A stretch of DNA of 64,000 bases from Rhodocyclaceae bacterium (lineage in GTDB: Bacteria; Pseudomonadota; Gammaproteobacteria; Burkholderiales; Rhodocyclaceae), in contig JACAEF010000024.1 of assembly GCA_013388985.1 (NCBI GenBank), positions 8,370 to 72,369 of the forward strand, given 5' to 3'. The translations under genes and the position numbers were made by a program. Below the pieces are notes generated by a model. That model saw only the letters and a list, made by a program, of their open reading frames with translations, did not search any database and had not been told where the DNA came from. Positions 27,897-51,518 of the stretch are shown here, piece after piece. Numbering within the stretch: position 1 is the first letter of the stretch; each line of letters starts with the position of its first letter.

Positions 27897-27912
27897 TGGC
27901 GCGATTGTTGCG
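27897..27912 (+). promoter_or_regulatory. Candidate sigma-54 promoter TGGCGC-N5-TTGCG for the B1-C1-A1 operon
   Basis: GG-N10-GC spacing is exact (consensus TGGCAC-N5-TTGCA). Lies 51 nt upstream of the ATG at 27963, next to a sigma-54-dependent regulator operon. Confidence 0.55.
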
Positions 27913-27962
27913 GATAAGCAGCACCGTTGAGCGCAGTGCATTCACGAGAGGAGGCAAGCCAG

Positions 27963-28673: not shown

Positions 28674-28686
28674 AAGGGGAGCCGTC

Positions 28687-29550: not shown

Positions 29551-29571
29551 CCGATTCGAGGAGAGAGAAAC

Positions 29572-32211: not shown

Positions 32212-32339
32212 TTGGAGATGCGGGGATTCGTCCGTCGTGGTCCTGTCGCGGCGGACGGGATTTGAAGGTCCGGCATTCATGCGGACCATTTTTCGGGGTT
32301 CGACATGCTCAGCAGTATTTTCGAAATCGAGGACGAAGG

Positions 32340-32365
32340 GAAAATCGGCGCTGGCGAGACGGCAG
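32340..32365 (-). repeat. Dispersed intergenic repeat, copy 6 (CTGCCGTCTCGCCAGCGCCGATTTTC on minus strand)
   Basis: Read directly. Lies between the A1 stop (32211) and the preferred TorD-like start (32389). Confidence 0.8.
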
Positions 32366-32388
32366 TCATTCCTGCATCGCCAGCGGCG

Positions 32389-33147
32389 ATGGCCGCCGAA
32401 TGTCGCGCGCGTGCAAGCGTGTATCGTCTGTTGTCCGGTGTGTTCGTCGAGGAGGCCGCTGCGGAATTCCTCGCGGCGATTCGCGCCGACGACATGCTGC
32501 GCCAGCTTGCGGAAACCGGTTTGCGTTTCGACGATGACTTCGTCGCCACGCCTTTGAGCGAATTGGTCGAGACGTTGGCAATCGAATATGCAAGTCTGTT
32601 CGCCGCTTCCGGCGGTTTCCCGCCGGTCGAATCGGTGCGGCTTTATGGTCGTTACAAGCAAGAGCCTGAATTCGCGACGATGCAAACCTACCGGCGGCTT
32701 GGATTCGTTCTGCAGTCCGGCCGCCATGAGGTGTTTGCCGATCAGCTCGGTGTGGAGTTGATGTTCGTTGCCGCGCTGCTCGAGCGCCAGGCTGTGCGGC
32801 TCGATGGCGATGGGCATGCGCAGGCGCGCGAGCTGGAAAAAGAGATCAAGCGGTTCTGGACGCAGCATCTCGGCCGCTGGGCACGCGGCTATGGGCGCTT
32901 GGTCGAGCGCGCCGCCTCGCATTCTTTCTACCGCGAGATGGGGCGCTTTCTTGCCGGCTTCGCCGAAGAGGAGATCGGGGCGATGGGACTGCGCGTCGAG
33001 GATGCCGATCAGGCACGTCTCGAAGTTCCGAAGGCCGAGGTGCAAGTCGCGTTCGACCCGGACGAACCGGTCTGCAATGGCTGTGCCAGTGAAGCCATCG
33101 CCCAACGGTCGGGCATTGTCTCTGTCTTGCACGATCTGCGCGTATGA
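32389..33147 (+). CDS. TorD/DmsD-family redox-enzyme maturation chaperone 1
   Basis: MAAECRARASVYRLLSGVFVEE...EYASLF...ADQLGVELMFVAALL is TorD-family-like. An alternative upstream ATG at 32305 would place the repeat inside the CDS, so 32389 is preferred. Confidence 0.7.
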   Translation: MAAECRARASVYRLLSGVFVEEAAAEFLAAIRADDMLRQLAETGLRFDDDFVATPLSELVETLAIEYASLFAASGGFPPVESVRLYGRYKQEPEFATMQTYRRLGFVLQSGRHEVFADQLGVELMFVAALLERQAVRLDGDGHAQARELEKEIKRFWTQHLGRWARGYGRLVERAASHSFYREMGRFLAGFAEEEIGAMGLRVEDADQARLEVPKAEVQVAFDPDEPVCNGCASEAIAQRSGIVSVLHDLRV

Positions 33148-36282: not shown

Positions 36283-37452
36283 TCACGAACCCTTGAAGAG
36301 GCTGGCTCCCATGGCATGATTGCGTCGACAGCTGGGGCAGAGTGCGCTCAGGGAGGAAGTGGCGAAAACCCGCAGACATTCGCGGCAGATCCGCAAGGCA
36401 TGGCTGGTCAGCCGTTGCGGCGCTTCGCTGAGGGGGGGAGTGTCGGCGCGACGCAGGCGCAGCGCGTGCTCTGGGCAGGCGGTCACGCATCTACCGCAGC
36501 CAATGCAGCGCAGCGCATCGAACTCGATGCCGGTTCGTTCCGGTTCCTCATAGCGTCTGAGCGCCGCGGTTGGACAGACCCCTGCGCAGACCGTGTGATT
36601 GGCGCACTCCGGCTCGATTTCCACGACGTGAAACGGCGTGGCGGGAACGGAATGCCCGGCTCGCGTCGCGACACGCAGTAGCAGCGTGAGCAGACGTGAG
36701 CGCGCCGGTAACGGCATCAGGTCTGTTCTGCGCAGGGCATGGGGTTGCGGGAGCTTCTGGGCGTCGTCGATGCCGACCGCGCGTCTGGCTTCGTTGCCCA
36801 GCCGCAGCAGAAAACCTCGCCGCGCCGGGGCGGTGGGGGCAGCGTCAGGAATATGTCGGGGCATCCGGCTGGCCGGCAAGGGTTCGCGACTCAGCCTGGG
36901 GAGGTATGTGGCAGGCACGCCTGCCACCTCCAGCCATTGCGCGGCTGTTTCGAGTGCCGCAGCAGCCGGATGCCGTTCGACGCATTTTGCCCCGGCATTG
37001 CACTGGCGGCACCAGCCTCGATCGATGACGAGCACGGGTTGCGTCCCCGCATTTTCGACCAGTTCGAGCCAGTCCGCAGGCGCCAGACCACCCAGGCAGG
37101 GAACGCGCAGGGCCGTTCCGGCAACGTGGCGATCGATCTTCTGACACTCGATACGCAACGGGGTGACGGCCGGAAGCGCATCGGGCAGAGCGAAGCCTTT
37201 GACGACAAGGGCGCCGGTGGGACAGGCGGCCGCGCAGCGGCCGCAGCCGAGGCATTGATTGCCGATGCGAAATACGCCCGCGCCGATGTCGATGCACTCG
37301 ACCGGGCAGGCGCTGCGGCAGGTACTGCAACCCGATTCGTCGAATCGCAGGGCGATGCAGGCCGCAGGCAACAGACGCACCCGGCCATCGGCTTCGACCG
37401 CCTGCCAGTCATGCCCCGATGACACGGCGGAATACTGCAGGGAATCTCTCAC
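36283..37452 (-). CDS. Polyferredoxin (2+2 [4Fe-4S] motifs) with C-terminal zinc-ribbon, paralogue 2
   Basis: Motifs CSTCRSACP, CLGCGRCAAACP, CANHTVCAGVCP, CIGCGRCVTACP, and C-terminal CRECLRVFATSSLSALCPSC. GTG start overlaps the upstream stop (GTGA). Confidence 0.7.
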   Translation of the reverse strand: MRDSLQYSAVSSGHDWQAVEADGRVRLLPAACIALRFDESGCSTCRSACPVECIDIGAGVFRIGNQCLGCGRCAAACPTGALVVKGFALPDALPAVTPLRIECQKIDRHVAGTALRVPCLGGLAPADWLELVENAGTQPVLVIDRGWCRQCNAGAKCVERHPAAAALETAAQWLEVAGVPATYLPRLSREPLPASRMPRHIPDAAPTAPARRGFLLRLGNEARRAVGIDDAQKLPQPHALRRTDLMPLPARSRLLTLLLRVATRAGHSVPATPFHVVEIEPECANHTVCAGVCPTAALRRYEEPERTGIEFDALRCIGCGRCVTACPEHALRLRRADTPPLSEAPQRLTSHALRICRECLRVFATSSLSALCPSCRRNHAMGASLFKGS

Positions 37453-38249
37453 TTGATGGCGCGCTTGAAGTAACCTTGCATCGCGTCACGGCACTCGGGG
37501 CAGTGATCGAGATGATCGACCGCCAGGCCGGCTTCGGTGAGGGCCTTGATCATGATGCCGATTTCTTTTTCCCGCGCGAATGGCTTGCCGCAGGTCTTGC
37601 AGTGGCGCCAGACACCAAGGCTCGTATCGGCACGGCGTTCGGCATGGCGGCGCCGTTGCAGGGTCTTCTTGTCCGGCTCGGCAACGAGTTCAGCCATGGC
37701 CTTGCTGGCAAGCCTGGCAAGCGGAGCGTAGGGGGAAGCGGTGGATTCGGCCTCGATCGCCGCCGTCAGGCGCGGCAGGGCTCCGACCAGACAGACATTG
37801 GCGAACTGCTCGGGGGAAAGCGCCGGATCCGGCTCGCCATACAGGACGGCGAGCGTTTCCAGTTGCACCGACAGATGATCGGGCAAGTCCTTCAGCGCGT
37901 CGCGTTTGACGATGCCCGCCAGCCGGTAGGCGTTTTCGAGTGCGTCGAGGCAGGGGCCGTTCAATGCGCCGTCGATATAGATGCCGAGGTTGAGTTTGGC
38001 GGGGATCGGCGGTTGGAGAAACAGGTGGCTGTAATCCACCAGCAGCCCGAGATTGTCCGGGATGCGGCCGAGGCTGAGGCGGAACGCGGTGAGTTCCGGT
38101 TGTGCTGCGATGCCGAGGGCCGTGCACAGTTCATCGAGATCCTCGACCAGCGCGGTGCGAAAGGCTGTTGCGACTTCAGGGCGCTGCGGCGGCAGGAAGG
38201 CGTTGGCGAGCGTGAGCCAGAAGGTCTGCTTGATTTCGTCGGCTGTCAT
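37449..38249 (-). CDS. TorD-family chaperone fused to a C-terminal CxxC-N30-CxxC zinc-ribbon domain (ArxD-like position)
   Basis: The N-terminal ~180 aa is TorD-like (LVDYSHLF...PDHLSVQLETLAVL). The C-terminus is HCKTCGKPFAREKEIGIMIKALTEAGLAVDHLDHCPEC. Confidence 0.65.
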   Translation of the reverse strand: MTADEIKQTFWLTLANAFLPPQRPEVATAFRTALVEDLDELCTALGIAAQPELTAFRLSLGRIPDNLGLLVDYSHLFLQPPIPAKLNLGIYIDGALNGPCLDALENAYRLAGIVKRDALKDLPDHLSVQLETLAVLYGEPDPALSPEQFANVCLVGALPRLTAAIEAESTASPYAPLARLASKAMAELVAEPDKKTLQRRRHAERRADTSLGVWRHCKTCGKPFAREKEIGIMIKALTEAGLAVDHLDHCPECRDAMQGYFKRAIK

Positions 38250-38306: not shown

Positions 38307-39512
38307 TCAGGCGGCGGCGCCCGCCAGCTTGTTTTGCGTTGTGTGATTGGGCGTGGCCGACAGATGGAAGAGTTTCTCACCGATCGCATAGCCACCGAGT
38401 GCCACTGCCAAGCCGAAGATCGCCATCGCCCATTCGGTCGTCGAAGGGAAGTAAGGCTCGAGGCTGTTGACCCACGTGCCCTTGAACATCGGTACGACCT
38501 GACCGCTGACGATGAATTCGTAGCGGTTGATGAACATCCCTCCCAGGACGAGGAAGGCGGCGATCATCTGCGGCTGCATGCGCACCTGCATGCCGGGTTG
38601 CAGCATCATCCAGAACGGGAGGACGAGGCCGAGCAGGAATTCGATCCAGAACAAGGGAGACCTGATGAGGACATGGAATCCTTCCAGTCCGTCGAGGTTG
38701 CTCCACAAGCCGGTCCACATGCGGGTGACGATCATCACCAGGGTGATGCCGATCAGCGTGGCGAACACTTTCGGCAATTGATCGCTTTCGGCCAGCGCAC
38801 GCAATTCGTCAGGCATGTTGCGGTTGTCGAAGTCGAAGGCCATGTAGGTCGTCACCACGATCGCCGCGGCGCCGCAAAGCGCGGCGGTCAGCATGTAGTA
38901 GATCGAGGTGAAGGAACCGAACCACATCGGCCGCATCGCGACGGAACCGAACAGCAGCCCAAGCATGCCGGAGGCGAGGATGACGGCGACGAAGCTGGCT
39001 ACGCCGATGAGCTTGGACAGGTTGCTGTGCCAGTCGTCCTGCATGATCAGGTAGAACTTGATGATCAGCAGCACGAGATCGATCGTGTAGAACACGCCCA
39101 TCCAGAACATCGGACTCGCCACCTGCATGCCGGTGGGCATCGCCCAGAGCATGCGGAAGGGGTGGCCGAGCTCGAACGCCAACACGGCGAAGCCAGAGGC
39201 CAGGGTGATGATGGCCAGCCAGATGCAGCGCTTGACGATCGGATAAAACTGTTTGAAGCCGAACACCATCGCCAATGAAGCGATCATCGACAGGCCGGAG
39301 GAGGTCAGGGCGAAGAACACATAGGTGGCGATCGGCAGCCCCCAGTTGACGCCGTCGCTCGAGGTGTTGAACGCTGCATGACCGACGCTCGTCAACTGAT
39401 AAAGCATGTAGGCGCCGGAAATGCCGCCGACGATGATGCAAGAGACCAGCCAGGCATTGGCCGCCGAACGCACGCGGCTGCTGATCTCCGTCGATTTCGC
39501 GAAAGTTGCCAT
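38307..39512 (-). CDS. NrfD/PsrC-family membrane subunit, 'C2' (ArxC/ArrC-like)
   Basis: 401 aa, about 10 TM helices, directly downstream of the Fe-S subunit. Confidence 0.75.
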   Translation of the reverse strand: MATFAKSTEISSRVRSAANAWLVSCIIVGGISGAYMLYQLTSVGHAAFNTSSDGVNWGLPIATYVFFALTSSGLSMIASLAMVFGFKQFYPIVKRCIWLAIITLASGFAVLAFELGHPFRMLWAMPTGMQVASPMFWMGVFYTIDLVLLIIKFYLIMQDDWHSNLSKLIGVASFVAVILASGMLGLLFGSVAMRPMWFGSFTSIYYMLTAALCGAAAIVVTTYMAFDFDNRNMPDELRALAESDQLPKVFATLIGITLVMIVTRMWTGLWSNLDGLEGFHVLIRSPLFWIEFLLGLVLPFWMMLQPGMQVRMQPQMIAAFLVLGGMFINRYEFIVSGQVVPMFKGTWVNSLEPYFPSTTEWAMAIFGLAVALGGYAIGEKLFHLSATPNHTTQNKLAGAAA

Positions 39513-39523: not shown

Positions 39524-40276
39524 TTAGATCTTCTTGAGCGAACGTGTGGCGGGAACGGAGCCGCCTTCACCGGTGAGGTAATAGACCTGCGGTTTGTTGC
39601 CGAGGTGATCGAGCAAACGCACGCCGTTCTTGTAGGCGATCTGCCTGTTGACCTCGCTGTTCGGATTCGACAAATCGCCAAAGAACCGGGCGCCGGGCGA
39701 GCAGGTCACGACGCATGCAGGCGTGTATTCGCGCGTGGCGGGATTTTGCGGATCGAAATCCACGGTGCCCTTGGGCGCTTTGCTGACACGGTGAAAACAG
39801 AAGGTGCATTTCGAAACCACGTCGTGCGGCTGCACGCCGACACCGTGCTTCCAATCCTCCTGGGGCATCTTCCAGGGCGGACTCCATGAATGCGCGTCTT
39901 CGCTCTTGAAGACATCTTTCATGTTGGGGCCGCCGTAAGTCGCCTTTTCCTCGGTATAGAAACGCACGCCATAAGGGCAGGCGATCATGCAGTACTTGCA
40001 ACCGATACACCGCTCCCAGTCGATCAGCACCTGACCATCCTCGGCCTTGTAGGTGGCGCGCACCGGGCAGACCGCAACGCACGAAGGGTTCTCGCAATGC
40101 ATGCACGGGCGCGGGAACCATTTGATTTCTGCGTTCGGATATTCACCCTCCTGAAAAAAGATGACGTCTTGCCAATGCTCGCCGGGCAGCCGGCTGTTTT
40201 CCATGCCGCAAGCGATGGTGCAAGCCTGGCAACCCGTGCATTTTTCCAGATCGATGACCATTCCCCACTTTGCCAT
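39524..40276 (-). CDS. 4x[4Fe-4S] electron-transfer subunit, 'B2' (ArxB/ArrB-like)
   Basis: WGMVIDLEKCTGCQACTIAC, CMHCENPSCVAVCP, CIGCKYCMIACP, CTFC...PACVVTC. Confidence 0.85.
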   Translation of the reverse strand: MAKWGMVIDLEKCTGCQACTIACGMENSRLPGEHWQDVIFFQEGEYPNAEIKWFPRPCMHCENPSCVAVCPVRATYKAEDGQVLIDWERCIGCKYCMIACPYGVRFYTEEKATYGGPNMKDVFKSEDAHSWSPPWKMPQEDWKHGVGVQPHDVVSKCTFCFHRVSKAPKGTVDFDPQNPATREYTPACVVTCSPGARFFGDLSNPNSEVNRQIAYKNGVRLLDHLGNKPQVYYLTGEGGSVPATRSLKKI

Positions 40277-40287: not shown

Positions 40288-43077
40288 TTAGACTCGTTCC
40301 ACACTGACCAGGCCGCTGTGGTAGCAGGCCAGGCCAGACAAGGGTTCCGACAGATTCTCGGTGACTTCGTTGGTGCTGCCGGAGGGTAGGCGGTCCTTGG
40401 CCTCGGCCCAGCGGCCTTGCGCCCAGTGGCCATGGATCATCGGCAGTACGACGGTATCGGGCCGAGTGGTGTGCGTCACGCGCGCGCGCACGCGAATCTC
40501 ACCGATCTTGTTCTTGATCTTGACGATGTCCCCGTCTCGGATGCCACGCTTGGCCGCGGCTTCGGGATGGATTTCGAGAAACACTTCGCGTTTGCCGCCC
40601 TGTACCGGCTGGATCATGGCCGTGACATGCGGCAGATTGGCACTGCGCCCTTCCGCCTGCCCGGCGAGCTTGGGAGAGACGAAATGCAGATCACCATTGC
40701 CGCCGTGCCTGGGTTCGACCCATTGCGGGAAGGGCGCGCGTTCGGCGGGCAGACCGAATCTTTCTTGAACATAGTCGGCATGATGTTCGAGTTCCGTGAC
40801 CTTGAGCTCGAACTTGCCCGTCGGGGTCGGCATCACCTTTTCCTTGACTTCGGCCGCGGTGAGGATCTTGTTGTAGCCCTTGCCATCCCATTCGTAAAAC
40901 ACCCCATCCTTTTGCAGGTAGGCATAGGGCTTGCGGTACCAGACCCCCTTCTGCTTGAAGGTCTCGAAGTCGACGACCCCGTTGTCGCCGGGTTTTTCCT
41001 TGAAGCCTTCGCACATCCACTTGATGATGTTTTCGGTATTGTCGATCTTCTTGTAGTACTCGGCGGTCGGTCCTTTGATGCGCTTGCCGATTTCGATGAT
41101 CACATCGCCGAAGACCTTGGTGTCGTACAACGGCTTGATCGCTGGTGTGCGGATCATCGAGATCGGATAACCCTCGTAAGGATAGGTATCGGCGATTTGC
41201 AAGCGTTCGAGGTAGGTGTGATCGGGAAGGATCAGATCGGCGAACCTGTTGGTTTCGCCAGGAAAGGGCGAGGTGTCGATGACGAAAACTTCGCGCCACA
41301 TCTCCTCCCATTTGGTGCAATCGGGTCCAGAGAACACCGCGCCGGTCATATAGATGATCGCCGTGTCGAGCTTGTAGGGCTCGCCCTTCAGATGGTTGAT
41401 GGCGATCTCCTGCATCATGTTCTTCGCCAGCGGCCATTTTTTCGTCTTGACCATGTCGATGCGCGGCTGTTTTTTCCACGGCCCATCCTTGGCGTAATCG
41501 TCCTGGTAGTCTTCGACCTTGATCGGCAGCTTTGCCCAGGCCGTCTTCATCTGATAGCCGCGCAACCCACCCTTGGCGAACATGTTGCCGGTCAAGGCAT
41601 TGAGCGCATGGATCGCCATACCGTTATAGACGCCGTTGGTGTGCGCCGAGGCGCCGCGTTCGAACAGAGCGACCGCCGGCTTGGTCGTCGCGAATTCGCG
41701 CGCCACTGTGATGATGTCCTTGGCGGAGACGCCGGAGATTTCCTCGGCCCATTCCGGGGTGCGATCTTTCAGTTCGATGTTCCACCACTCGATCAGGCCG
41801 TGCGTCCATTTTTCCTGGAACAGCGGTTGGCCGACGACGGGGACGGGCTCGGGTTTTCTGTCTTTTTCGAGCATGGCACGCTGCTCGGCAATCAGCTTGG
41901 CCTTCGCATCGGCTTCGTCCTGCTTCTTCAGCGCCTCGGCAAGTTTCTTTTCGAGCGCCGCCTTCGCATCTCCTTTGGCCTCTTTGACCGCTTTCTTCAG
42001 CTTGTCGATCTCGGCCAGCATCTTGACCTTTTCTTCAGCCGCCTTTTGCGCCGCCGCGTCCTTCTTCGCGGCGGCTTCGGCCTTGGCGGCTTTCCAGGCG
42101 TCGACGTCTTCCTGATTTACCGTGAGCGGGATCGCTGCGCCTGTCTTGAAGCGATTGATGCCATCGACGAAGTCGCCGACGAAATGCTTGTCCCATAGCC
42201 CTTCGGTGAGGATCACATGCGCCATCGCCAGCGCCAGCGCACCGTCGCGGCCAGGTTTGACGAGTAGCAGGCGGTCGGCGGAGGACCCTGTCGTATTGAG
42301 ATGCACATCGACCACCGTGACCTTGGTCTTCGGCGATTTGCTGCGCATCAGGCCCCATTTCTGCATGTTGGGATTGAAGGGGCGGAAGGCTTCGAGGAAG
42401 CCTGCGCCGAAGACGAGCAGGTAGTTGGTGTTGGCATAATCGTAGGCGCTGTAGGCATGATGCCCGTCCATGATGTGCTTGACGGTTTCGGAAGCATCCG
42501 AGCACATCGAAGAATGGCCGAGGTTGTAGTTCGGCGTGCCGTAGAGTTTGCCGAATTCGGTGAGCAGTCCGACGTCGGAATAGCCCCAGCCGCGCCCGGT
42601 GAGCGTGGCGAAGCGGTGCGATTCACCTTTTTCACGCAGTGCGTTCAGGCGGCCAGCGACGATGTCGAGGGCTTCGTCCCAGGAGATCGGCACGAATTTC
42701 GGATCCTCGTTTCGACCTTTCTTGGGGTTGGTGCGTTTCATCGGCCCCTTGATGCGGTCGGCGTCGTAGGTCAAATACACGCCATAATGCCCCTTCGGGC
42801 AGAGCTTGCCATTGGAGAGGGGATTGTCGAGAGTGCCATAGATCGCGTGGATGCGGCCGTTGGTCGTATAGACGTCGATGCCGCAGCGTGCCGGGCATTG
42901 GTGGCAGAAACTCTTGGTGACCACTGTCTGTCCCGTGGTCGTCGGTGCCTCGGCTTGCGCCTTCTGCACGCTGATCAACTGACTGCCCAGTCCGATGCTG
43001 CCGGCCGCACCTGCAACACCCGTCGCTTGGAGAAACCTGCGGCGTGTCAGTTTCGGATTGAAGAGGGAATCGCTCAT
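40288..43077 (-). CDS. arxA: Tat-exported Mo-bisPGD oxidoreductase catalytic subunit 2, ArxA-like (carries TGRGWG motif), with ~100-aa K/A/E-rich insertion, 'A2'
   Basis: Tat signal LTRRRFLQATGVAGAAG. Canonical C58-x2-C61-x3-C65-x26-C92. TGRGWG at aa 160-165 (nt 42583..42600). Probable Mo-ligand Cys in GHSSMCSD. RBS GAGGAG. Start at Met30 of the ORF, giving 929 aa. Confidence 0.6.
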   Translation of the reverse strand: MSDSLFNPKLTRRRFLQATGVAGAAGSIGLGSQLISVQKAQAEAPTTTGQTVVTKSFCHQCPARCGIDVYTTNGRIHAIYGTLDNPLSNGKLCPKGHYGVYLTYDADRIKGPMKRTNPKKGRNEDPKFVPISWDEALDIVAGRLNALREKGESHRFATLTGRGWGYSDVGLLTEFGKLYGTPNYNLGHSSMCSDASETVKHIMDGHHAYSAYDYANTNYLLVFGAGFLEAFRPFNPNMQKWGLMRSKSPKTKVTVVDVHLNTTGSSADRLLLVKPGRDGALALAMAHVILTEGLWDKHFVGDFVDGINRFKTGAAIPLTVNQEDVDAWKAAKAEAAAKKDAAAQKAAEEKVKMLAEIDKLKKAVKEAKGDAKAALEKKLAEALKKQDEADAKAKLIAEQRAMLEKDRKPEPVPVVGQPLFQEKWTHGLIEWWNIELKDRTPEWAEEISGVSAKDIITVAREFATTKPAVALFERGASAHTNGVYNGMAIHALNALTGNMFAKGGLRGYQMKTAWAKLPIKVEDYQDDYAKDGPWKKQPRIDMVKTKKWPLAKNMMQEIAINHLKGEPYKLDTAIIYMTGAVFSGPDCTKWEEMWREVFVIDTSPFPGETNRFADLILPDHTYLERLQIADTYPYEGYPISMIRTPAIKPLYDTKVFGDVIIEIGKRIKGPTAEYYKKIDNTENIIKWMCEGFKEKPGDNGVVDFETFKQKGVWYRKPYAYLQKDGVFYEWDGKGYNKILTAAEVKEKVMPTPTGKFELKVTELEHHADYVQERFGLPAERAPFPQWVEPRHGGNGDLHFVSPKLAGQAEGRSANLPHVTAMIQPVQGGKREVFLEIHPEAAAKRGIRDGDIVKIKNKIGEIRVRARVTHTTRPDTVVLPMIHGHWAQGRWAEAKDRLPSGSTNEVTENLSEPLSGLACYHSGLVSVERV

Positions 43078-43160
43078 CGTGTTTTCTCCTCGTGGATAAG
43101 ATCGATGCTGATCAGGTCTGCGCACCTTCCTGGGGCGCAAACAACCCATGCCGTTACTCT

Positions 43161-43175
43161 GCAAACTCTGTTCCT
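43161..43175 (-). promoter_or_regulatory. Weak candidate sigma-54 promoter (minus strand AGGAAC-N5-TTGCA) for the A2 operon
   Basis: GG-N10-GC spacing is exact on the minus strand. The -12 TTGCA is good and the -24 is degenerate. Lies about 85 nt upstream of the ATG at 43077. Confidence 0.35.
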
Positions 43176-43346: not shown

Positions 43347-44234
43347 ATGACGAGGGGCGCGTTACCGCTTGAAGACGGCGCGCGTAGGCGCTGGCTGAAG
43401 CAGCTTGCCATCGGCGCGTTGACAGCAGGGATGGGGAAGGCGGTCGGGGCCGCCGCCCCGGGCACGATCCGGGTGGGCATGACGCCCGCCTTCCTCAATG
43501 ACCAGTATTCACTGTTGGCCGACTGGCGTGCTTATCTCCAGGCCAAGCTGGGTATGCCGGTGGAGTTCGTGCAACGTGATCGCTACCGTGAGACGATGGA
43601 CTTGCTCCATCTCGGCAAACTGGATTTCGCCTGGCTGTGTGATTACCCCTTCGTTTTTCTCAAAGACCTGGTCAGACTGCTAGTGGTGCCGCTCAATCAG
43701 GGCAGACCCTATTACCGCTCGTTACTGCTGGTTGGGGCGGCAGACCGCAGACGCAACAGCATGGCCGACCTGGCGGGCGGCGTGTTCGCTTTTGCCGATC
43801 CCTACTCGAATACCGGTTATCTCGCCCCGCGTTACCGGATTCGCGAACTGGGCCGCGATCCCAATACCTTTTTTCGCCAGACATACTTCACCTGGTCGCA
43901 CCGCAAGGTGATCGAAGCCGTGAGCAAAGGCTTTGCGGATGGCGGCGCGGTCGACAGTTTCGTCTGGGATACCCTGGAAAAGGTGCGTCCCGATGTCACC
44001 CAGGGGGCGCGCATCATCGAGCGCTCGCCGGAATATGCCTTTCCACCGTTTGCTGCGCATCGCGCGGTGCCGGCCGAAATGTTCGAGCGTATGCAGAAGG
44101 TGCTGATCGGCATGTCGCAGGACGAATCCGGCCGTTTGTTGCTGACGCGCCTCAATCTCGATGGCTTCATCGTCGGTCGGCGCCAGATGTATGACAGCGT
44201 GGCGAAAATGATGGCGGCATTCGGCGAGATCTGA
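43347..44234 (+). CDS. Periplasmic PhnD-fold oxyanion-binding protein, AioX/ArxX-like, paralogue 2
   Basis: Twin-arginine-like signal (ARRRWLKQLAIGALTAG). Aligns by eye with 26836..27705 over its whole length (GKLDFAWLCDYPF, FFTWSHRKVIEAV, ADGGAVDSFVWDTL). Confidence 0.75.
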   Translation: MTRGALPLEDGARRRWLKQLAIGALTAGMGKAVGAAAPGTIRVGMTPAFLNDQYSLLADWRAYLQAKLGMPVEFVQRDRYRETMDLLHLGKLDFAWLCDYPFVFLKDLVRLLVVPLNQGRPYYRSLLLVGAADRRRNSMADLAGGVFAFADPYSNTGYLAPRYRIRELGRDPNTFFRQTYFTWSHRKVIEAVSKGFADGGAVDSFVWDTLEKVRPDVTQGARIIERSPEYAFPPFAAHRAVPAEMFERMQKVLIGMSQDESGRLLLTRLNLDGFIVGRRQMYDSVAKMMAAFGEI

Positions 44235-45694
44235 TGCGGCGGTTTTTCGATCTCAGCCTACGTCACAAACTGCCTCTGTGGGGGAGCGGGCTGATCGTCG
44301 CCGCGACGCTGCTGGTCTCCGCCGGCCTGATGTATCGTGCCTACGCCGACTTGAAACACGATGTCATCGTCAGTTCCTCTGGGCTGGGACGAACACTGGC
44401 GAAGCCATTGTTTCAGGCTCTGCTCCACGACGATCTGTGGCGCGCCATCGAAATCATCAACTCGCCGTTGCAAGGGGGAAGCCATGATGCGCCAATGCAG
44501 GCGAGCGTGATTTTCATCCTCGATCCGGCGCTGAAAGTCAGGGCTTCGACAGCGCCGCGCAGCATGCCGCTCGATGCCGAGCTCGACAGCTTGGGGCAAG
44601 ACTATCGTCTCCTGGCGGCCGCGCTCGAGACTGCCGATCCGCAACAAAGCCACACCTTCGAATTCGCCGAATCGGATTACCTGCATGTCACCACGCCGCT
44701 GGCGGAGGAGGGCGGCCATCTCGGCACGCTCGTCATCACTCATTCCAAAAACGATTTCCTGCCACGCTTTTCCAGCATTGCGCTCGAAGGCGCCGGTATG
44801 GGTCTGCTGGCGCTCGCGATCCTGCTACCCATCAATTGGTATTGGGGGCGGCGCATGGCCGAACCGCTCGTGCAGTTGGCCAGTAATATGGCTTTGATGG
44901 TCAAGGGGGCGCCGGCGAATCTGCACCCCGAACTGTATGCCTACCACGACGAACTCGGCCAGCTCTTCAATGCCTACCGGCAGGCGGCTGAGGAAATCAG
45001 CGCCAAGGCGGCGCTCGAACGCGAGATGCTGCGTTCCGAGCGTCTGGCGGCGATAGGCAGGCTGGCCGCCGGCATCGCCCATGAAGTGAACAATCCGCTG
45101 ACCGGCATGCTGATCGCGCTGGACAATCTCAAGCAACGCAAGCCGGACCATGGCATCGATGCCAAGCTCATGCGCACGCTCGAATTCCTCGAGCGCGGGC
45201 TGGCGCAGATCTCTGAAACCATCGGTGCGCTGCTCGTCGAGTCGCGCGTGCAATTGCGCCCCCTCGAACGCCATGATTTCGAGGATGTCCGTACCTTGAT
45301 CGAACCCCAAGCCGCGCGCAGGTCGTTGCGGCTCGATTGGCAGGTTGCGGTCGCGGATCCGATCCCCGTCGCCGCTGGACAAGTGCGCCAGATTCTGATC
45401 AACCTGTTGCTGAACGCGGTCCAAGCCACCGCCAACGGCGGCCGGATCCGCTTCTCCGCCGAGAAACGCAATGACGGATTGCTGCTGGACGTGACCAATG
45501 AAGGTGTTCCGCCCCCTCCGCAGGTGCTCGCCCATATCTTTGAGCCCTTCGTCTCCGGGCGGGAAGGAGGGCATGGTCTCGGCCTGTGGGTGACTTACCA
45601 GACCGTCCAGCAATTGGGCGGGACGATCGTCATCGAAACGCCCGAGGGTCAGGTAACCTTCCGCGTCCACCTGCCAATCAAGGAAAACGGATGA
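44234..45694 (+). CDS. Sensor histidine kinase (AioS/ArxS-like), paralogue 2
   Basis: Two TM helices plus a periplasmic domain, H-box AHEVNNPL, LINLLLNAV, GHGLGLW. Start overlaps the upstream stop (TGATG). Confidence 0.8.
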   Translation: MRRFFDLSLRHKLPLWGSGLIVAATLLVSAGLMYRAYADLKHDVIVSSSGLGRTLAKPLFQALLHDDLWRAIEIINSPLQGGSHDAPMQASVIFILDPALKVRASTAPRSMPLDAELDSLGQDYRLLAAALETADPQQSHTFEFAESDYLHVTTPLAEEGGHLGTLVITHSKNDFLPRFSSIALEGAGMGLLALAILLPINWYWGRRMAEPLVQLASNMALMVKGAPANLHPELYAYHDELGQLFNAYRQAAEEISAKAALEREMLRSERLAAIGRLAAGIAHEVNNPLTGMLIALDNLKQRKPDHGIDAKLMRTLEFLERGLAQISETIGALLVESRVQLRPLERHDFEDVRTLIEPQAARRSLRLDWQVAVADPIPVAAGQVRQILINLLLNAVQATANGGRIRFSAEKRNDGLLLDVTNEGVPPPPQVLAHIFEPFVSGREGGHGLGLWVTYQTVQQLGGTIVIETPEGQVTFRVHLPIKENG

Positions 45695-47028
45695 GAGCCG
45701 GAATCTGTCTGATCGAAGACGATCCTTTCGTCGGTAGCCCGCTTTCGGAGCGGCTGGAAATGGACGGCTATGTCTGTGACTGGTTCCAGACGGGGGCCGA
45801 AGCACTGGCGGCGTTGCGCAAGAACCGTTATCAACTGGCCATCAGCGACATCCGCTTGCCCGACATCAGTGGCGAAGAACTGTTCGAGACCTTGCGCCAG
45901 GAAGAAATTTATCTGCCGCCCTTTCTCTTCATCACCGGGCATGGCACCATCGACCAGGCCGTCCGGCTGCTGAAGCTCGGCGCCCATGATTACATCACCA
46001 AGCCATTCGACCCCAGCGCGCTGATGGCAAAAGTGCGCAGCCTGTGCGACAGCCGGCTTGCCATCGCCGCTACCCAGAGCCTGGGAATTTCTACGGCCAT
46101 GCGCACGATCGAGGCCTTGCTGCCGCGGCTGGCCACCAGTCGCAGCCCAGTGCTGATCACAGGCGAATCGGGCGTTGGCAAGGAAGAGGTGGCGCGTCAT
46201 TTACACCGCTTGGGCGATCCCACGGGCAATAAGCCCTTCATCGCCGTCAATTGCGGTGCGATTCCCGAAACCTTGATCGAATCGGAACTCTTCGGTCACG
46301 AGAAGGGCAGTTTCACCGGGGCGGTGAAGGCGCGCAGCGGCGTGTTCGAACAGGCCGACGGCGGCACGCTCTTCCTCGACGAAATCGGTGAAATGCCCTT
46401 GCCGATGCAAGTCAAGTTGCTGCGGGCGATCCAGGACAGCGCGATCGTGCCGGTGGGTGGCGAGATGCCCCGACCCGTGAATATCCGCCTGGTATGCGCG
46501 ACGCATCGCGATCTCAAGGCGATGGTGGAAAACGGCGAATTCCGTGAAGATCTGTACTACCGCATCCACGTCATCCACTTGCCGATACCTCCGCTCAGGG
46601 AACGGCAGGACGACATTCTCTGGCTCACGGAGCGCTTCCTTGCCGAAATCGGACGGCGCGAACGTCGGTTGCTCTCGATCTCCGCGCGCGCCGCGAGCGC
46701 GATGGTGAATTATCCTTGGCCGGGCAACATCCGCGAATTGCGTCATTGCCTCGAACGTGCCGCGGTTCTTTCAGCAAGCGATTGTTTCGAGACGGCAGCG
46801 CTCTTCGGCGGGGCAACCGCGCTGGCGGAGGCCGCCAATCAGTCGATGGACCGTCAGCCGCTCGGCGAATATATGGAAGCCTGCGAACGCGATTACATCA
46901 ATCGCGCCCTGGGCGAAGCCGGAGGCAAAATCAGCCGGGCGGCGGTGCTGCTCGGCATCAGCCGCAAGAATCTGTGGCAGAAAATGCGCAGACTGGGCAT
47001 CAGCGCCAATAGCGGCGAGGATGCCTGA
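45691..47028 (+). CDS. Sigma-54-dependent response regulator, paralogue 2
   Basis: MRAGICLIEDD...[46 protein letters not shown]-terminal HTH. ATG overlaps the kinase stop (ATGA). Confidence 0.85.
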   Translation: MRAGICLIEDDPFVGSPLSERLEMDGYVCDWFQTGAEALAALRKNRYQLAISDIRLPDISGEELFETLRQEEIYLPPFLFITGHGTIDQAVRLLKLGAHDYITKPFDPSALMAKVRSLCDSRLAIAATQSLGISTAMRTIEALLPRLATSRSPVLITGESGVGKEEVARHLHRLGDPTGNKPFIAVNCGAIPETLIESELFGHEKGSFTGAVKARSGVFEQADGGTLFLDEIGEMPLPMQVKLLRAIQDSAIVPVGGEMPRPVNIRLVCATHRDLKAMVENGEFREDLYYRIHVIHLPIPPLRERQDDILWLTERFLAEIGRRERRLLSISARAASAMVNYPWPGNIRELRHCLERAAVLSASDCFETAALFGGATALAEAANQSMDRQPLGEYMEACERDYINRALGEAGGKISRAAVLLGISRKNLWQKMRRLGISANSGEDA

Positions 47029-47098: not shown

Positions 47099-47117
47099 AT
47101 CATTCGTGGAGACAGAA

Positions 47118-47564
47118 ATGAGTGAGCCGCAATTCACTTTCACGCTCGAACAGCAGGAGGACTACGCCTTCCTCGTGCGTTTCGACAACGACCTGCCGGC
47201 CCTGCTGACCGACGAGCCGCCGCCGCTGGGCAAGGGCGCGGGGCCGAACCCGTCGCGGCTGATCGCGGCCGGCGTGGCCAACTGCCTGATGGCGAGCCTG
47301 CTGTTCGCGTTGCGCAAGTTCAAGAACGAGCCCGGCAGGCTCACCGCCACGGTGACCGCCCAGATGACGCGCAACGAGCAAAAGCGCCTGCGCATCGGCC
47401 GCATCGATGTCGAGCTGCGCTTCAGTGCGGCCGCGGCCGGGATGGAGCATCTCGACCGCATCCTGGCCACTTTCGAGGACTATTGCGTGGTCACGCAAAG
47501 CGTGCAAAGCGGCATTCCGGTGGGCATTGCGGTCTATGATGGCACGGGCGCCCAGCTGAAATAG
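47118..47564 (+). CDS. OsmC/Ohr-family protein
   Basis: LGKGAGPNPSRLIAAGVANCLMASLLFALRK and a later CVVTQS are typical of the OsmC family. ATG at 47118 is preceded by GGAGA. A GTG at 47106 is an alternative start. Confidence 0.7.
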   Translation: MSEPQFTFTLEQQEDYAFLVRFDNDLPALLTDEPPPLGKGAGPNPSRLIAAGVANCLMASLLFALRKFKNEPGRLTATVTAQMTRNEQKRLRIGRIDVELRFSAAAAGMEHLDRILATFEDYCVVTQSVQSGIPVGIAVYDGTGAQLK

Positions 47565-47694
47565 CGGAAACGCTGAATAAATTGCTGCGCGGGCGGTCTG
47601 CTGTGTTGCACGGTGCTCGCTCCCTCGCCTATCAGCTTGATATGTCTCGGTCGCTGCGCGCCGTGCGCCTTGCATCCCATCCCGCTCGCGGCTT

Positions 47695-47724
47695 TTTTCA
47701 GCGTTTCCTGACCGCCCGTATAAT
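47695..47724 (+). promoter_or_regulatory. Candidate sigma-70 promoter (-35 TTTTCA, 18-bp spacer, perfect -10 TATAAT) ending 6 nt before the folP ATG
   Basis: Read directly. TATAAT is at 47719..47724. There is no Shine-Dalgarno between it and the ATG at 47731, so the predicted TSS coincides with the start codon. Confidence 0.4.
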
Positions 47725-47730
47725 CCGGCC

Positions 47731-48564
47731 ATGACGACGCTGTATTGCGGCCGCTACCGGCTGGTGCTCGATCGCCCGCTGATCATGGGCATCGTCAATC
47801 TGACGCCCGATTCGTTTTCCGGGGACGGCGTCGGCGACGATACCAGCGCCGCGATCGCCCATGCCGAAGCGCAACGCGCGGCCGGTGCCGACATCCTCGA
47901 TCTCGGCGCCGAATCCTCGCGTCCCGGTGCGGCGCCGGTGCCCGCGGAGGTCGAAATCACGCGCCTGCGGCCGGTGCTGCGGGCGCTGCGCGACTGGGAT
48001 GTGCCGGTCTCGGTCGATACGGCCAAGCCGGAGGTGATGCGCATGGCGATCGACGAGGGCGCGGCGCTGATCAACGACATCATGGCCCTGCGCGCGCCCG
48101 GCGCACTGGAATGCGTGGCGAACAGCGACGTCGGCGTCTGCCTGATGCACATGCAGAAGGATCCGCGCACGATGCAGGCGCAGCCACATTACGAAGATGT
48201 GGTCGAGGAGGTGCATGCGTTCCTCACCGCTCGCCTGATGGCCTGTGTCGCCGCCGGCATCGAGCACGAACGGATCTGCATCGATCCCGGCTTCGGCTTC
48301 GGCAAGACCGTGGCGCACAACTACACGCTGCTGCGCGAGCTGCGGCGTTTTACGGAGCTGGGCGTGCCGGTGCTGGCCGGGCTGTCGCGCAAGTCGATGC
48401 TCGGCGCGGTGACCGGGCGCGACAGCGGTCCGGCGCGCATGCCGGCGAGCATCGCGGCGGCGCTGCTGGCGGTCGAGCGCGGCGCGCGCATCGTGCGCGT
48501 GCATGACGTCGCCGCGACCAAGGATGCGCTCGCCGTGCTGGCGGCGATGGAAGGGAGGATTTGA
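47731..48564 (+). CDS. folP: Dihydropteroate synthase
   Basis: [43 protein letters not shown]. 277 aa, upstream of glmM. Confidence 0.9.
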
Positions 48565-49934
48565 TGACGACGAGACAATATTTCGGCACCGACGGGGTGC
48601 GCGGCCGCGTCGGCCGGTTTCCGATCACGCCGGATTTCGCGCTGCGGCTGGGTTTTGCCGCCGGCGAGACGCTCGTCGCCCATGCGCGCGAATCAGGCCA
48701 TGCGCGCGATGGCGAGCGTCCGGCGGTGCTGATCGGCAAGGACACGCGCATTTCCGGCTACATGCTCGAAGCGGCGCTGGAGGCGGGCTTTGCCGCGGCC
48801 GGCGTCGACGTGATGCTGTGCGGGCCGCTGCCGACGCCGGCCGTCGCCTATCTGACCCGGGCGCTGCGTCTGGCCGCGGGCGTGGTGATCTCCGCCTCGC
48901 ACAATCCGTATGACGATAATGGCATCAAGTTCTTCGCTGCCGGCGGCTGGAAGCTGCCCGATGCGGTGGAGGCCGAGATCGAGGCGCGGCTGGCTGAGCC
49001 GATGGGCTGCCGGCCATCGAGCGAGCTCGGCAAGGCCCGCCGGGTTGACGATGCGGCGGGCCGTTACATCGAATTCTGCAAGAGCACCTTTCCCAACGAT
49101 CTCGACCTGCGCGGCTTGAAACTCGTCGTCGATTGCGCCCATGGCGCCGCCTACAACGTCGCCCCGAAGGTCTTTCACGAGCTCGGTGCCGAGGTGGTGG
49201 CGGTGGGCGCCCAGCCCGACGGCCTCAACATCAACGCCGGCGTCGGCGCGACGGTGCCGGCCTTCCTGCAGGAGCAGGTGCAAAAGCACCAAGCCGATCT
49301 GGGCATCGCCCTCGATGGCGACGCCGACCGTGTCGTGATGGCCGATGCCAGCGGCCGCCTGTTCGACGGCGACGCGCTGCTCTATGTGATCGCCCGCCGC
49401 CAGCAGGCCGCCAAAGGCCTGCCGGGGATCGTCGGCACCCTGATGAGCAACCTCGGCTTCGAGCAGGCGCTGGCGCGGCTGGGCATCGGTTTCGCGCGCG
49501 CCAAGGTCGGCGACCGTTACGTGCTGGAGATGATGCAGGAGAAAGGCTGGCCCTTGGGCGGCGAGAATTCCGGCCACATCATCTGTCTCGACCGGCATAC
49601 CACCGGCGATGGCATCGTCGCCGCGCTGCAGGTGCTGGCGGCCTTGCGCGAGCGTGGCGAGACGCTTGCGCAAGCCTGTGCCGACCTGACCATGTTCCCG
49701 CAGAAGCTGATCAACGTCCGCTTCACCAAGCCCTTCGACTGGCGCAGCAATGCCGCCATCCAGGCCGCGACGGCGCGCGCCGAGAAGATCCTCGACGGCA
49801 GGGGCCGCGTGCTGCTGCGCCCCTCGGGCACGGAGCCCCTGCTGCGCGTGATGGTCGAAGGCGAGGACGGGGCGCTCGTGCTGGCCCAGGCCGAGGCAAT
49901 CGCCGCGGCGGTGCGGGCGGCTGCGGATCTGTGA
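48564..49934 (+). CDS. glmM: Phosphoglucosamine mutase
   Basis: YFGTDGVRG, the phosphoserine loop [22 protein letters not shown]-type DGDADRV. ATG overlaps the folP stop. RBS GGGAGGA. Confidence 0.92.
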
Positions 49935-49946
49935 TGAGCCTTTGAG

Positions 49947-49972
49947 GTGCCGTCCCGCCAGCGCCGATTTCT
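49947..49972 (+). repeat. Dispersed intergenic repeat, copy 9 (GTGCCGTCCCGCCAGCGCCGATTTCT)
   Basis: Read directly. Lies between the convergent stops of glmM (49934) and dgkA (49979). Confidence 0.85.
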
Positions 49973-49978
49973 TTCTGC

Positions 49979-50380
49979 TTACCCGAACAGCACCAGTCCC
50001 CAGGTCGCCACGACGTTGATCAGCGCGATCAACACGGCCGCGCTGCCGATGTCCTTGGCGCGCTTGGCGAGCCGGTGGCGTTCGAGAGAAACGCGATCGA
50101 CGGCGGCCTCGATCGCCGAATTGAGCAGTTCGACGACCAGCACCAGCAGCACACTGGCGATCATCAGCGCCTTGCCGAGACCACTGGCCGGCAGGAACAG
50201 TGCCAGTGGGATCAGCACCAGCGCGAGCAAGACCTCCTGGCGAAACGCATCCTCATGCCGGTAGGCGGCGGCTAGGCCGTCGAGCGAATAGCGCAGGGCG
50301 TTGATCAGGCGGGTAAGGCCGGTCTTGCCCTTGAAGGGGCTCTCTCCGCTTCCGGGCGGGGTGTCGTCATGCGGTTCCAT
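49979..50380 (-). CDS. dgkA: Diacylglycerol kinase
   Basis: 133 aa, three TM helices, LTRLINALRYSLDGLAAAYRHEDAFRQE and ...ELLNSAIEAAVDR typical of DgkA. Confidence 0.85.
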   Translation of the reverse strand: MEPHDDTPPGSGESPFKGKTGLTRLINALRYSLDGLAAAYRHEDAFRQEVLLALVLIPLALFLPASGLGKALMIASVLLVLVVELLNSAIEAAVDRVSLERHRLAKRAKDIGSAAVLIALINVVATWGLVLFG

Positions 50381-50414
50381 GCGCGAAAGATAGCAGCTTT
50401 GCGCTGCATCCCGG

Positions 50415-51428: not shown

Positions 51429-51518
51429 ACACCCTCCCGAAGGGCCGCCCCGAGGGAGGCGCAGCCCCCTGTGGGGGCAGCGAGCGTAGCAGGCGTGGGG
51501 GTCATTGTGTCCAGTCTC

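What the first reader, a model, noticed from the sequence alone, without database searches (positions are those of the whole stretch)
41860..42117. ~100-residue Lys/Ala/Glu-rich helical insertion inside the catalytic subunit A2
In A1 about 20 residues separate ...DSDFINTW... from TPEWAEKISGV. In A2 about 135 residues separate the equivalent ...HFVGDFVDG... from TPEWAEEISGV. The extra segment is low-complexity and strongly helical or coiled-coil in character: ...NQEDVDAWKAAKAEAAAKKDAAAQKAAEEKVKMLAEIDKLKKAVKEAKGDAKAALEKKLAEALKKQDEADAKAKLIAEQRAMLEKDRKPEPVPVV...

The segment is in frame within a single long ORF, so it is not a frameshift artefact of the window. It resembles TolA domain II or histone-H1-like tails rather than anything I associate with molybdoenzymes. 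A surface-exposed charged coiled coil on a periplasmic catalytic subunit could be a docking arm, an oligomerisation element, or a tether to the envelope or a partner cytochrome.
Basis: seen in the sequence. Interest (0 to 1): 0.7.

Follow-up and report, generated by a model that had tools for sequence, protein, structure and literature searches.

The report
Known helical-arm insertion in arsenite oxidase ArxA
The Lys/Ala/Glu-rich segment is real, but it is the "long insertion" already published for freshwater-type anaerobic arsenite oxidases (ArxA): a roughly 100-residue predicted two-helix arm on the enzyme surface whose function is still unknown.

Summary
The minus-strand gene 40288-43080 encodes a 930-aa Tat-exported molybdoenzyme. 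Residues 319-418 (window 41827-42126) are an in-frame insert rich in Ala, Lys and Glu that is absent from ArrA (PDB 6CZ7) and from most homologues.

The gene is arxA, the catalytic subunit of the anaerobic arsenite oxidase. It lies in an arxXSR / arxABCD-B2 cluster.

The insert is not new. Watanabe 2014 and Ospino, Kojima and Fukui 2019 (PMC6549141) described this "long insertion" in group-3 ArxA. They reported it as K/A/E/L-rich, predicted helical, and without homologues outside ArxA.

What I add:
- AlphaFold predicts an autonomous antiparallel helix-turn-helix arm (H323-367, H371-406; pLDDT about 85).
- All 30 insert-bearing homologue clusters found share one alignable insert.
- Insert presence is patchy on the core tree (at least 10-16 state changes). 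Near-identical orthologues lack it or carry a different 12-aa insert, which points to loss and allele swapping.
- Where present it is under purifying selection (dN/dS 0.05-0.21).
- Its net charge is near neutral.
- Nothing in ArxB or ArxC co-varies with it.
- A profile search of 1.84 billion proteins finds it only in ArxA.

My best reading is a non-catalytic accessory surface arm. Its function is unproven.

The parts
41827..42126 (-). The ~100-aa insertion (ArxA residues 319-418). It consists of base segment LTVNQED, helix 1 (323-367), turn K369-G370-D371, helix 2 (371-406) and return segment KDRKPEPVPVVGQ.
   Evidence: Boundaries come from phmmer against ArrA 6cz7_A and from the alignment with 120 homologues. 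Helices come from the AlphaFold2 models. Conserved positions are listed.
40288..43080 (-). arxA, the catalytic Mo-bisPGD subunit of the anaerobic arsenite oxidase (930 aa). It has a Tat signal, a 4Fe-4S Cys motif (C59, C62, C66, C94) and the ArxA-type TGRGWG motif at 161-166.
   Evidence: Pfam domains PF04879, PF00384 and PF01568. Best solved relative is ArrA 6cz7, by sequence and by fold (TM 0.85). The NCBIfam ArrA equivalog scores 430 bits against a cutoff of 1600. It is 61% identical to S. denitrificans skB26 ArxA.
39524..40276 (-). arxB, the four-cluster Fe-S electron-transfer subunit (250 aa, no signal peptide).
   Evidence: NCBIfam ArrB/QrcC-like and Pfam Fer4_11.
38307..39512 (-). arxC, the NrfD/PsrC-type membrane anchor (401 aa).
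   Evidence: Pfam PF03916.
37449..38249 (-). arxD, a TorD/NarJ-type maturation chaperone (266 aa).
   Evidence: Pfam PF02613.
36283..37452 (-). arxB2-like ferredoxin (389 aa). It lies downstream of arxD rather than upstream of arxA.
   Evidence: Pfam Fer4 domains. tblastn places its homologues upstream of arxA in most other loci. The downstream position has been reported for strain M52 (PMC6549141).
43347..47028 (+). Divergent regulatory genes: arxX (PhnD-like binding protein, 43347-44234), arxS (histidine kinase, 44234-45694) and arxR (sigma-54 response regulator, ORF 45586-47028).
   Evidence: Pfam PF12974; HisKA/HATPase_c; Response_reg/Sigma54_activat/HTH_8.

Best explanation
The segment is the published "long insertion" of group-3 (low-salt, neutral-pH) ArxA.

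Shown or computed here:
- It sits in a surface loop that tolerates insertions. The loop lies between the helix after the PGTDGALALA strand and the conserved TPEWAE helix.
- It is predicted to fold on its own into an antiparallel helix-turn-helix arm. The helices are 45 and 36 residues long, so the arm should project roughly 55-65 A.
- The arm is held together by a hydrophobic cluster near the tip (I358/L361/V365 against L376/L380/A383), an Ala-rich middle, and conserved base residues (F321, D325, V326, A337, Q400, R401, L404, KPEP, G417).
- It arose once.
- It is kept under purifying selection where present.
- It has been lost, or swapped by recombination, many times between closely related arxA alleles.

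Inferred:
- It is not part of the catalytic or electron-transfer machinery.
- It acts as an accessory arm, most plausibly a protein-protein contact or spacing element. Candidate roles are self-association of ArxAB(C) units or loose docking of a periplasmic partner. The tower domain of LSD1 is a comparable case of a helical arm inserted in a catalytic domain.
- It is useful in some settings and dispensable in others.
For: Identity:
- The site and sequence are alignable with the S. denitrificans skB26 insert and with 29 other clusters.
- The literature description matches.

Structure:
- The full-length model has pLDDT 85.2 and pTM 0.84, with the insert at pLDDT 78-88 forming H323-367 and H371-406.
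- The isolated insert gives the same hairpin at pLDDT 87.4.

Non-catalytic and dispensable:
- ArrA and most ArxA lack the insert.
- P0012, which lacks the insert, is a syntenic orthologue of insert-bearing P0007. The two are about 88% identical in DNA throughout and differ by a clean 318-bp in-frame indel.
- P0058 carries a 12-aa insert instead, on a backbone at least 90% identical to the insert-bearing P0038, P0033 and P0034.
- A Fitch count gives 12 changes between insert-present and insert-absent on the core tree, 10-16 across bootstraps. A single gain would give 1 and shuffled states about 27.

Selected where present:
- Length between anchors stays at 133-141 residues across core identities down to about 60%.
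- There are invariant or near-invariant positions.
- dN/dS of the insert is 0.05-0.21 in ten close pairs, against 0.04-0.16 for the core.

Permissive loop:
- Unrelated inserts of 12, about 22 and about 55 residues occur in the same loop in other lineages.
Against: - No partner is identified. No gene content, ArxB or ArxC length, or ArxB or ArxC alignment column segregates with the insert.
- The outward faces, the tip sequence (KGD, KGNP or EESDDEK) and the net charge (-4 to +9) are not conserved, which is not what a specific docking surface would show.
- The insert evolves faster than the core. At about 90% core identity, insert identity averages 62%.
- Repeated loss suggests low fitness cost.
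- Heptad periodicity is not significant.
- Where the arm points relative to the substrate funnel, ArxB or the membrane could not be determined, because no model coordinates were available.
Confidence: 0.55

Rival explanations
1. The insert is a tolerated passenger. It is an in-situ expansion of low-complexity helical sequence in a permissive loop with no function of its own. Selection acts only to keep it soluble and helical so that it does not harm folding or Tat export.
For: - Frequent loss between near-identical orthologues.
- Faster evolution than the core.
- Variable tip and variable charge.
- No co-varying partner.
- No homologue elsewhere.
- Short imperfect internal DNA repeats at spacings that are multiples of 3, consistent with growth by duplication.
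- Other lineages fill the same loop with unrelated, partly disordered-looking inserts.
Against: - dN/dS of 0.05-0.21 is nearly as low as in the catalytic core.
- Length is held within 8 residues across deep divergence.
- Charged surface positions K346, K351, K353, K379, K385, Q400 and R401 are at least 90% conserved. That is more than solubility alone requires.
Confidence: 0.3
2. The insert is an electrostatic tether. A TolA- or H1-like polycationic arm would bind the membrane surface, the envelope or an acidic redox partner.
For: - Lys-rich composition, 21 of 100 residues.
- The enzyme is periplasmic and anchored through ArxC.
Against: - Acidic residues nearly balance the basic ones. Net charge is +3 in the window and -4 to +9 (mean +1.8) across homologues, and beta-subtype inserts are net negative.
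- There is no TolA or other Pfam match.
Confidence: 0.05
3. The arm modulates catalysis or substrate access by sitting at the funnel, where it gates or steers arsenite and arsenate.
For: None directly. The host loop lies in one of the two MGD-binding domains that flank the funnel in this enzyme family. That placement comes from general knowledge of the family and was not tested here.
Against: - Near-identical enzymes work without the insert or carry other inserts.
- The catalytic motifs are unchanged.
- The published analysis places the insert far, in sequence, from conserved functional regions.
Confidence: 0.07
4. The insert is an assembly or sequencing artefact.
For: None.
Against: - Single ORF.
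- Same insert in isolates and in many independent assemblies.
- Native codon usage.
Confidence: 0.01

Closest known systems
The "long insertion" of group-3 ArxA (Sulfuricella denitrificans skB26, Sulfuritortus calidifontis J1A, Sterolibacteriaceae strains M52 and J5B, several MAGs), described by Watanabe et al. 2014 and by Ospino, Kojima and Fukui 2019 (PMC6549141)
   Same: - Same protein, same loop and alignable sequence.
- Same K/A/E/L-rich helical character.
- Same arx cluster. The unusual arxB2 position downstream of arxD, reported for strain M52, is also present.
   Different: Nothing essential. The window's insert belongs to what I call the alpha subtype, whereas skB26 carries the gamma subtype. 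No IS110 transposase lies next to arxR in the window, unlike the description of M52. The window is therefore a relative of M52 and not demonstrably M52 itself.
ArrA of Shewanella sp. ANA-3 (PDB 6CZ7), the respiratory arsenate reductase catalytic subunit
   Same: Closest solved structure by sequence (E 5.5e-111) and by fold (TM 0.85). The domain order and cofactor motifs are the same.
   Different: - ArrA has no insert. Its residues 275-277 bridge the site directly.
- ArrA has the (R/K)GRY motif where ArxA has XGRGWG (cited).
- The window protein scores far below the ArrA equivalog cutoff.
The 12-residue insertion of other group-3 ArxA ("QPKDPxAPRxP")
   Same: Same loop and same clade. Also noted by Ospino et al.. 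It is interleaved with the long insert on the core tree.
   Different: It lies a few residues upstream, before the (N)RF(K/E)xG motif. It is Pro-rich and not helical. No sequence carries both inserts.
Tower domain of human LSD1 (an antiparallel helical arm inserted in the amine-oxidase domain that docks CoREST)
   Same: Architecture only. Both are long two-helix hairpins of about 100 residues inserted in a catalytic domain and projecting from it.
   Different: No homology. The Foldseek matches of the isolated hairpin are not significant (best E 0.74; LSD1 entries E above 2). No partner is known for ArxA.
TolA domain II and histone H1 tails
   Same: Lys/Ala(/Glu)-rich low-complexity composition.
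   Different: No sequence relationship. The ArxA insert is a near-neutral polyampholyte that returns to its starting point as a hairpin. It is not an extended linker or a basic tail.

Membership tests
ArxA (anaerobic arsenite oxidase catalytic subunit, DMSO-reductase family) | N-terminal twin-arginine signal, 4Fe-4S Cys motif, molybdopterin and MGD-binding domains | tested here: met
   RRRFLQ at residues 13-18. PF04879, PF00384 and PF01568 are all above their cutoffs. C59, C62, C66 and C94 are invariant. The Pfam TAT_signal score of 20.0 is just below its cutoff of 22.7.
ArxA (anaerobic arsenite oxidase catalytic subunit, DMSO-reductase family) | XGRGWG motif near the active site (ArrA has (R/K)GRY) | tested here: met
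   TGRGWG at residues 161-166. G162, R163, W165 and G166 are invariant in 71 homologues. The criterion is as cited in PMC6549141.
ArxA (anaerobic arsenite oxidase catalytic subunit, DMSO-reductase family) | arx gene neighbourhood: arxB, arxC (NrfD), arxD (TorD-like), arxB2 and divergent arxXSR | tested here: met
   The same layout appears in related loci.
ArxA (anaerobic arsenite oxidase catalytic subunit, DMSO-reductase family) | Groups with ArxA rather than ArrA | tested here: met
   61% identity to S. denitrificans skB26 ArxA. The ArrA equivalog HMM scores 430 bits against a cutoff of 1600. I did not build a rooted Arx/Arr tree.
ArxA (anaerobic arsenite oxidase catalytic subunit, DMSO-reductase family) | Arsenite-oxidising activity | not testable with these tools
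   Activity has been demonstrated physiologically only for strain M52 among carriers of group-3 Arx (PMC6549141).
Group-3 ArxA "long insertion" | About 92-106 extra residues at this loop, homologous among carriers | tested here: met
   The loop measures 133 residues against 34 in ArxA without the insert. All 30 inserts align, with invariant D325, A337, Q400 and G417.
Group-3 ArxA "long insertion" | K/A/E/L-rich, predicted alpha-helical, no homologue outside ArxA | tested here: met
Canonical coiled coil | Statistically supported heptad (about 3.5-residue) hydrophobic periodicity | tested here: not met
   The Fourier test on alignment-averaged hydropathy was matched or exceeded by 233 of 500 permutations for helix 1 and 131 of 500 for helix 2. 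Large hydrophobic residues cluster only near the tip and the base, and the middle is Ala-rich.
TolA domain II / histone-H1-like basic tail | Sequence-family match or strong net positive charge | tested here: not met
   No Pfam match. Net charge is -4 to +9 with mean +1.8.

The most novel reading that the evidence does not exclude
The loop may be a recombining allelic cassette with three long-lived states: no insert, the 12-aa insert and the 100-aa hairpin. These states would be shuffled among otherwise near-identical arxA backbones and kept by balancing or niche-dependent selection. The hairpin would act as a docking or oligomerisation arm, similar in principle to the LSD1 tower, that changes how the arsenite oxidase assembles or couples to partners. 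That would be a mode of modular tuning not described for a bacterial molybdoenzyme.
Probability: 0.15. Interest if true: 0.55.

Novelty: already known. Interest (0 to 1): 0.27.

Why it matters
Arx drives anaerobic arsenite oxidation in groundwater, hot springs and lakes, and no Arx structure has been solved. A 100-residue arm on the catalytic subunit is a convenient molecular marker for freshwater-type Arx. Primers that size it already exist.

If the arm mediates assembly or partner docking, it would bear on how electrons leave this enzyme.

The patchy pattern of presence and absence found here also matters in practice. The insert cannot be used as a simple clade marker, and arxA alleles probably recombine in nature. 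The existence and general character of the insert are already published, so the finding itself is not a discovery.

Tried and rejected
- **Family search with the insert alone.** Pfam returned only noise.
- **Profile search.** A 17-sequence insert profile searched against 1.84 billion representative proteins returned only a truncated ArxA (P0121) and one marginal low-complexity fragment (P0122, E 7e-4). No donor or origin was found.
- **Fold search with the isolated hairpin.** Nothing was significant in Foldseek against the PDB.
- **Heptad periodicity.** Not significant.
- **DNA-level origin.** There is no tandem repeat, no meaningful inverted repeat and no composition shift. Only short imperfect direct repeats typical of K/A/E codon runs were found. 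I considered an in-frame mobile-element origin and dropped it.
- **Co-variation with partners.** No difference in gene content or in ArxB, ArxC or ArxD length, and no ArxB or ArxC column segregates with the insert. One weak ArxD column does.
- **Recent lateral transfer of the insert.** This was tested for the discordant cases P0007, P0023 and P0092. The inserts differ sharply from those of their core sisters but are not close to any sampled donor, so the result is suggestive and not conclusive.
- **Orientation of the arm.** This was not possible. The structure tool returns no coordinates and the ArrAB structure paper is not in the held library.
- **Identity of the source genome.** It was not found in the genome collection. 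The closest locus is a Rhodocyclaceae MAG, L001, at 89%.
Full report
**Observation.**
The quoted peptide is encoded on the minus strand inside a single long ORF, 40288-43164. The likely start is the ATG at 43080 (MSDSLFNPKLTRRRFLQ, a twin-arginine motif), which gives 930 residues.

A phmmer alignment to the closest solved structure, ArrA of Shewanella ANA-3 (6cz7_A, E 5.5e-111), breaks at query residue 318 / ArrA 275 and resumes at query 419 / ArrA 277. The extra piece is therefore residues 319-418, window 41827-42126. It contains 25 Ala, 21 Lys, 12 Glu, 8 Leu and 8 Asp.

The spacing between HFVGDFVDG and TPEWAEEISGV is 133 residues. The A1 paralogue has 15 residues between its equivalent anchors. 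GC, GC3 and codon choice of the insert match the rest of the gene. There is no significant tandem repeat.

**What the gene is.**
Pfam finds the Fe4S4, molybdopterin and MGD-binding domains. The ArrA equivalog HMM scores 430 bits against a cutoff of 1600, and PhsA scores lower still.

The protein carries TGRGWG at 161-166. This is the XGRGWG motif that distinguishes ArxA from ArrA, as cited in PMC6549141.

Downstream lie a four-cluster Fe-S subunit (39524-40276), an NrfD anchor (38307-39512), a TorD-like chaperone (37449-38249) and a ferredoxin-like arxB2 (36283-37452). Upstream and divergent lie a PhnD-like binding protein, a histidine kinase and a sigma-54 regulator (43347-47028). This is an arx cluster, arxXSR / arxABCD-B2.

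A1 (29572-32211) is a separate PhsA/Psr-like enzyme. It was therefore not an ideal comparator, although the conclusion drawn from it holds.

**It is already known.**
A full-text search found Ospino, Kojima and Fukui 2019 (Front Microbiol 10:1210, PMC6549141). That paper, citing Watanabe et al. 2014 for S. denitrificans skB26, reports the following:
- ArxA of "group 3" (low-salt, near-neutral habitats) carries a "long insertion". In strain M52 it amounts to 92 extra residues relative to strain MLHE-1.
- The insertion is enriched in Lys, Ala, Glu and Leu.
- Jpred predicts helices with high coiled-coil probability.
- There is no BLAST homologue outside ArxA.
- The function is unknown.
- A second, 12-residue insertion type exists.

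The skB26 plasmid gene aligns with the window through the insert. The window also shares with strain M52 the unusual position of arxB2 downstream of arxD.

**Distribution.**
Among the 120 best homologue clusters, 30 carry the long insert, with 133-141 residues between the anchors. Another 44 carry the 12-residue insert (46 residues between anchors), and 46 carry none (mostly 33-35).

All 30 long inserts align with each other. D325, A337, Q400 and G417 are invariant, and many positions are near-invariant: F321, V326, K346, K351, K353, I358, L361, L376, K379, L380, K385, R401, L404 and P410. This indicates a single origin. Three sequence subtypes are visible.

On a neighbour-joining tree of 758 core columns, with the loop excluded, the three loop states are interleaved. 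Fitch parsimony needs 12 changes between long insert and no long insert. The range is 10-16 over 30 bootstraps. The count is 10 using the C-terminal half alone and 16 using the N-terminal half alone. Shuffled states need about 27.

Specific cases:
- P0012 (no insert) and P0007 (long insert) are sisters in 30 of 30 bootstraps. Their contigs are syntenic and about 88% identical in DNA across arxS, arxX, arxA and arxB, and differ by one clean 318-bp in-frame indel. Each was assembled from two or three independent samples.
- P0058 carries the 12-residue insert on a backbone at least 90% identical to the long-insert proteins P0038, P0033 and P0034. Across the loop, however, it matches other 12-residue-type sequences. 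Deletion alone cannot produce this, so it implies allele replacement by recombination.
- P0007 and P0023 carry insert subtypes that differ from those of their core sisters. Core identity is 89-92% while insert identity is 31-45%.

The same loop holds unrelated inserts in alphaproteobacterial homologues. Loktanella/Yoonia MAGs carry about 55 residues rich in Pro, Ala, Asp and Glu, and a Gemmobacter MAG carries about 22 residues. The loop is therefore a permissive hot spot for insertions.

**Structure.**
AlphaFold2 run with a 71-sequence alignment gives a confident model (pLDDT 85.2, pTM 0.84). Its best PDB match is ArrA (TM 0.85).

The insert forms two long helices, 323-367 and 371-406, joined by K369-G370-D371. 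Its pLDDT is 78-88. Run alone with 17 sequences, the insert gives the same helix-turn-helix at pLDDT 87.4. This is consistent with an autonomous hairpin about 55-65 A long (my arithmetic, at 1.5 A per residue).

Large hydrophobic residues are conserved only near the tip (358, 361 and 365 facing 376, 380 and 383) and near the base (321, 326, 404). The middle is Ala-rich. A test for 3.5-residue periodicity was not significant. I therefore describe it as a helical hairpin and not a canonical coiled coil.

The arm is a near-neutral polyampholyte. Net charge is +3 in the window and -4 to +9 across homologues. Foldseek with the hairpin alone finds nothing significant.

I could not obtain coordinates. 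The direction of the arm relative to the funnel, ArxB or the membrane is therefore unknown.

**Selection.**
At about 90% core identity the inserts are on average 62% identical, with a range of 30-85%. In ten close pairs with unsaturated dS, however, insert dN/dS is 0.05-0.21 against 0.04-0.16 for the core. The amino-acid sequence is therefore constrained where the insert exists.

Between the window and its closest relative L001, both dN and dS of the insert are more than twice those of the core. This fits either a separate history for the cassette or a higher local mutation rate.

**Partners and origin.**
Gene content around arxA does not differ with insert state. ArxB is 249-261 residues long in every locus, whichever loop state arxA has. 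No ArxB or ArxC alignment column segregates with the insert.

A profile of the insert searched against 1.84 billion representative proteins found only a truncated ArxA and one marginal low-complexity fragment. Pfam finds nothing.

**Interpretation.**
The following points are shown or computed:
- The insert is the known group-3 ArxA insertion.
- It is predicted to be an autonomous two-helix arm in a permissive surface loop.
- It arose once.
- It is dispensable for the fold.
- It is under purifying selection where present.
- It is repeatedly lost or exchanged among alleles.

The function is inferred. I favour a non-catalytic accessory arm for protein-protein contact or spacing (confidence about 0.55 for the whole statement, lower for the functional part alone). 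A tolerated passenger is the main rival (0.3). An electrostatic tether is disfavoured by the neutral and variable charge, and a role in gating the funnel is disfavoured by the near-identical enzymes that lack the insert.

**Verdict.**
This is a real feature, correctly spotted, but already described in the literature with the same descriptive conclusions. The added value here is the hairpin model, the evidence for selection, the mosaic distribution implying loss and recombination, and a much larger negative search for homologues. Interest is low to moderate.

Noticed in passing
window 25388-33147: A1 belongs to a second molybdoenzyme cluster: Fe-S subunit 27927-28673, NrfD 28687-29550, A1 29572-32211 and a TorD-like gene 32305-33147. 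On the other strand it is preceded by a PhnD-like periplasmic binding protein (26836-27705) and a HAMP histidine kinase (25388-27547). This is a second AioX/ArxX-type sensor module. A1 is below every NCBIfam equivalog cutoff, so its substrate is unknown.
   Followed up: partly
window 36283-37452 (-): The arxB2-like ferredoxin lies downstream of arxD instead of upstream of arxA. This arrangement has been reported for strain M52 and one Muproteobacteria MAG (PMC6549141). The closest locus, L001, likewise has arxX directly upstream of arxA with no arxB2 between them; its contig ends before the downstream region.
   Followed up: partly
L008 ~8533-11172, L018 ~6267-8906, L014, L052: Rhodobacteraceae ArxA homologues carry unrelated inserts at the same loop. 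The Loktanella/Yoonia MAGs have about 55 residues rich in Pro, Ala, Asp and Glu, and a Gemmobacter MAG has about 22 residues. The loop is a general hot spot for insertions.
   Followed up: partly
homologues P0008, P0010, P0013, P0016, P0044-P0061 etc.; loci L009-L012, L015, L017, L047: A 12-residue Pro-rich insert (QPKDPxAPRxP) lies just upstream of the long-insert site and never occurs together with it. It is interleaved with the long-insert and no-insert forms on the core tree, with 19 state changes for the three states.
   Followed up: yes
L058 1939-4452 vs L060 6001-8832: These syntenic arxA orthologues are about 88% identical in DNA and differ by a clean 318-bp in-frame indel that removes the whole hairpin. 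The junction lies between two Phe codons (TTC) that flank the insert.
   Followed up: yes
window 41827-42126 vs L001: Synonymous divergence of the insert between the window and its closest relative is more than twice that of the core (dS 2.28 against 0.85), and dN is also doubled. This suggests a separate history or a higher local mutation rate. The sample is small and the estimate is near saturation.
   Followed up: partly
window 45586-45694: As listed, the arxR ORF starts at a GTG that overlaps the end of arxS by about 109 nt. The real start is probably further downstream. This was read from the ORF list only.
   Followed up: no
window 47100-51432: No IS110 transposase lies beside arxR, unlike the description of strain M52. 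The neighbouring genes are two ORFs without Pfam hits, a phosphoglucomutase (48561-49934) and a PHO4 phosphate transporter (50415-51428). Window GC is 64.1% against 63.6% reported for the M52 genome.
   Followed up: partly
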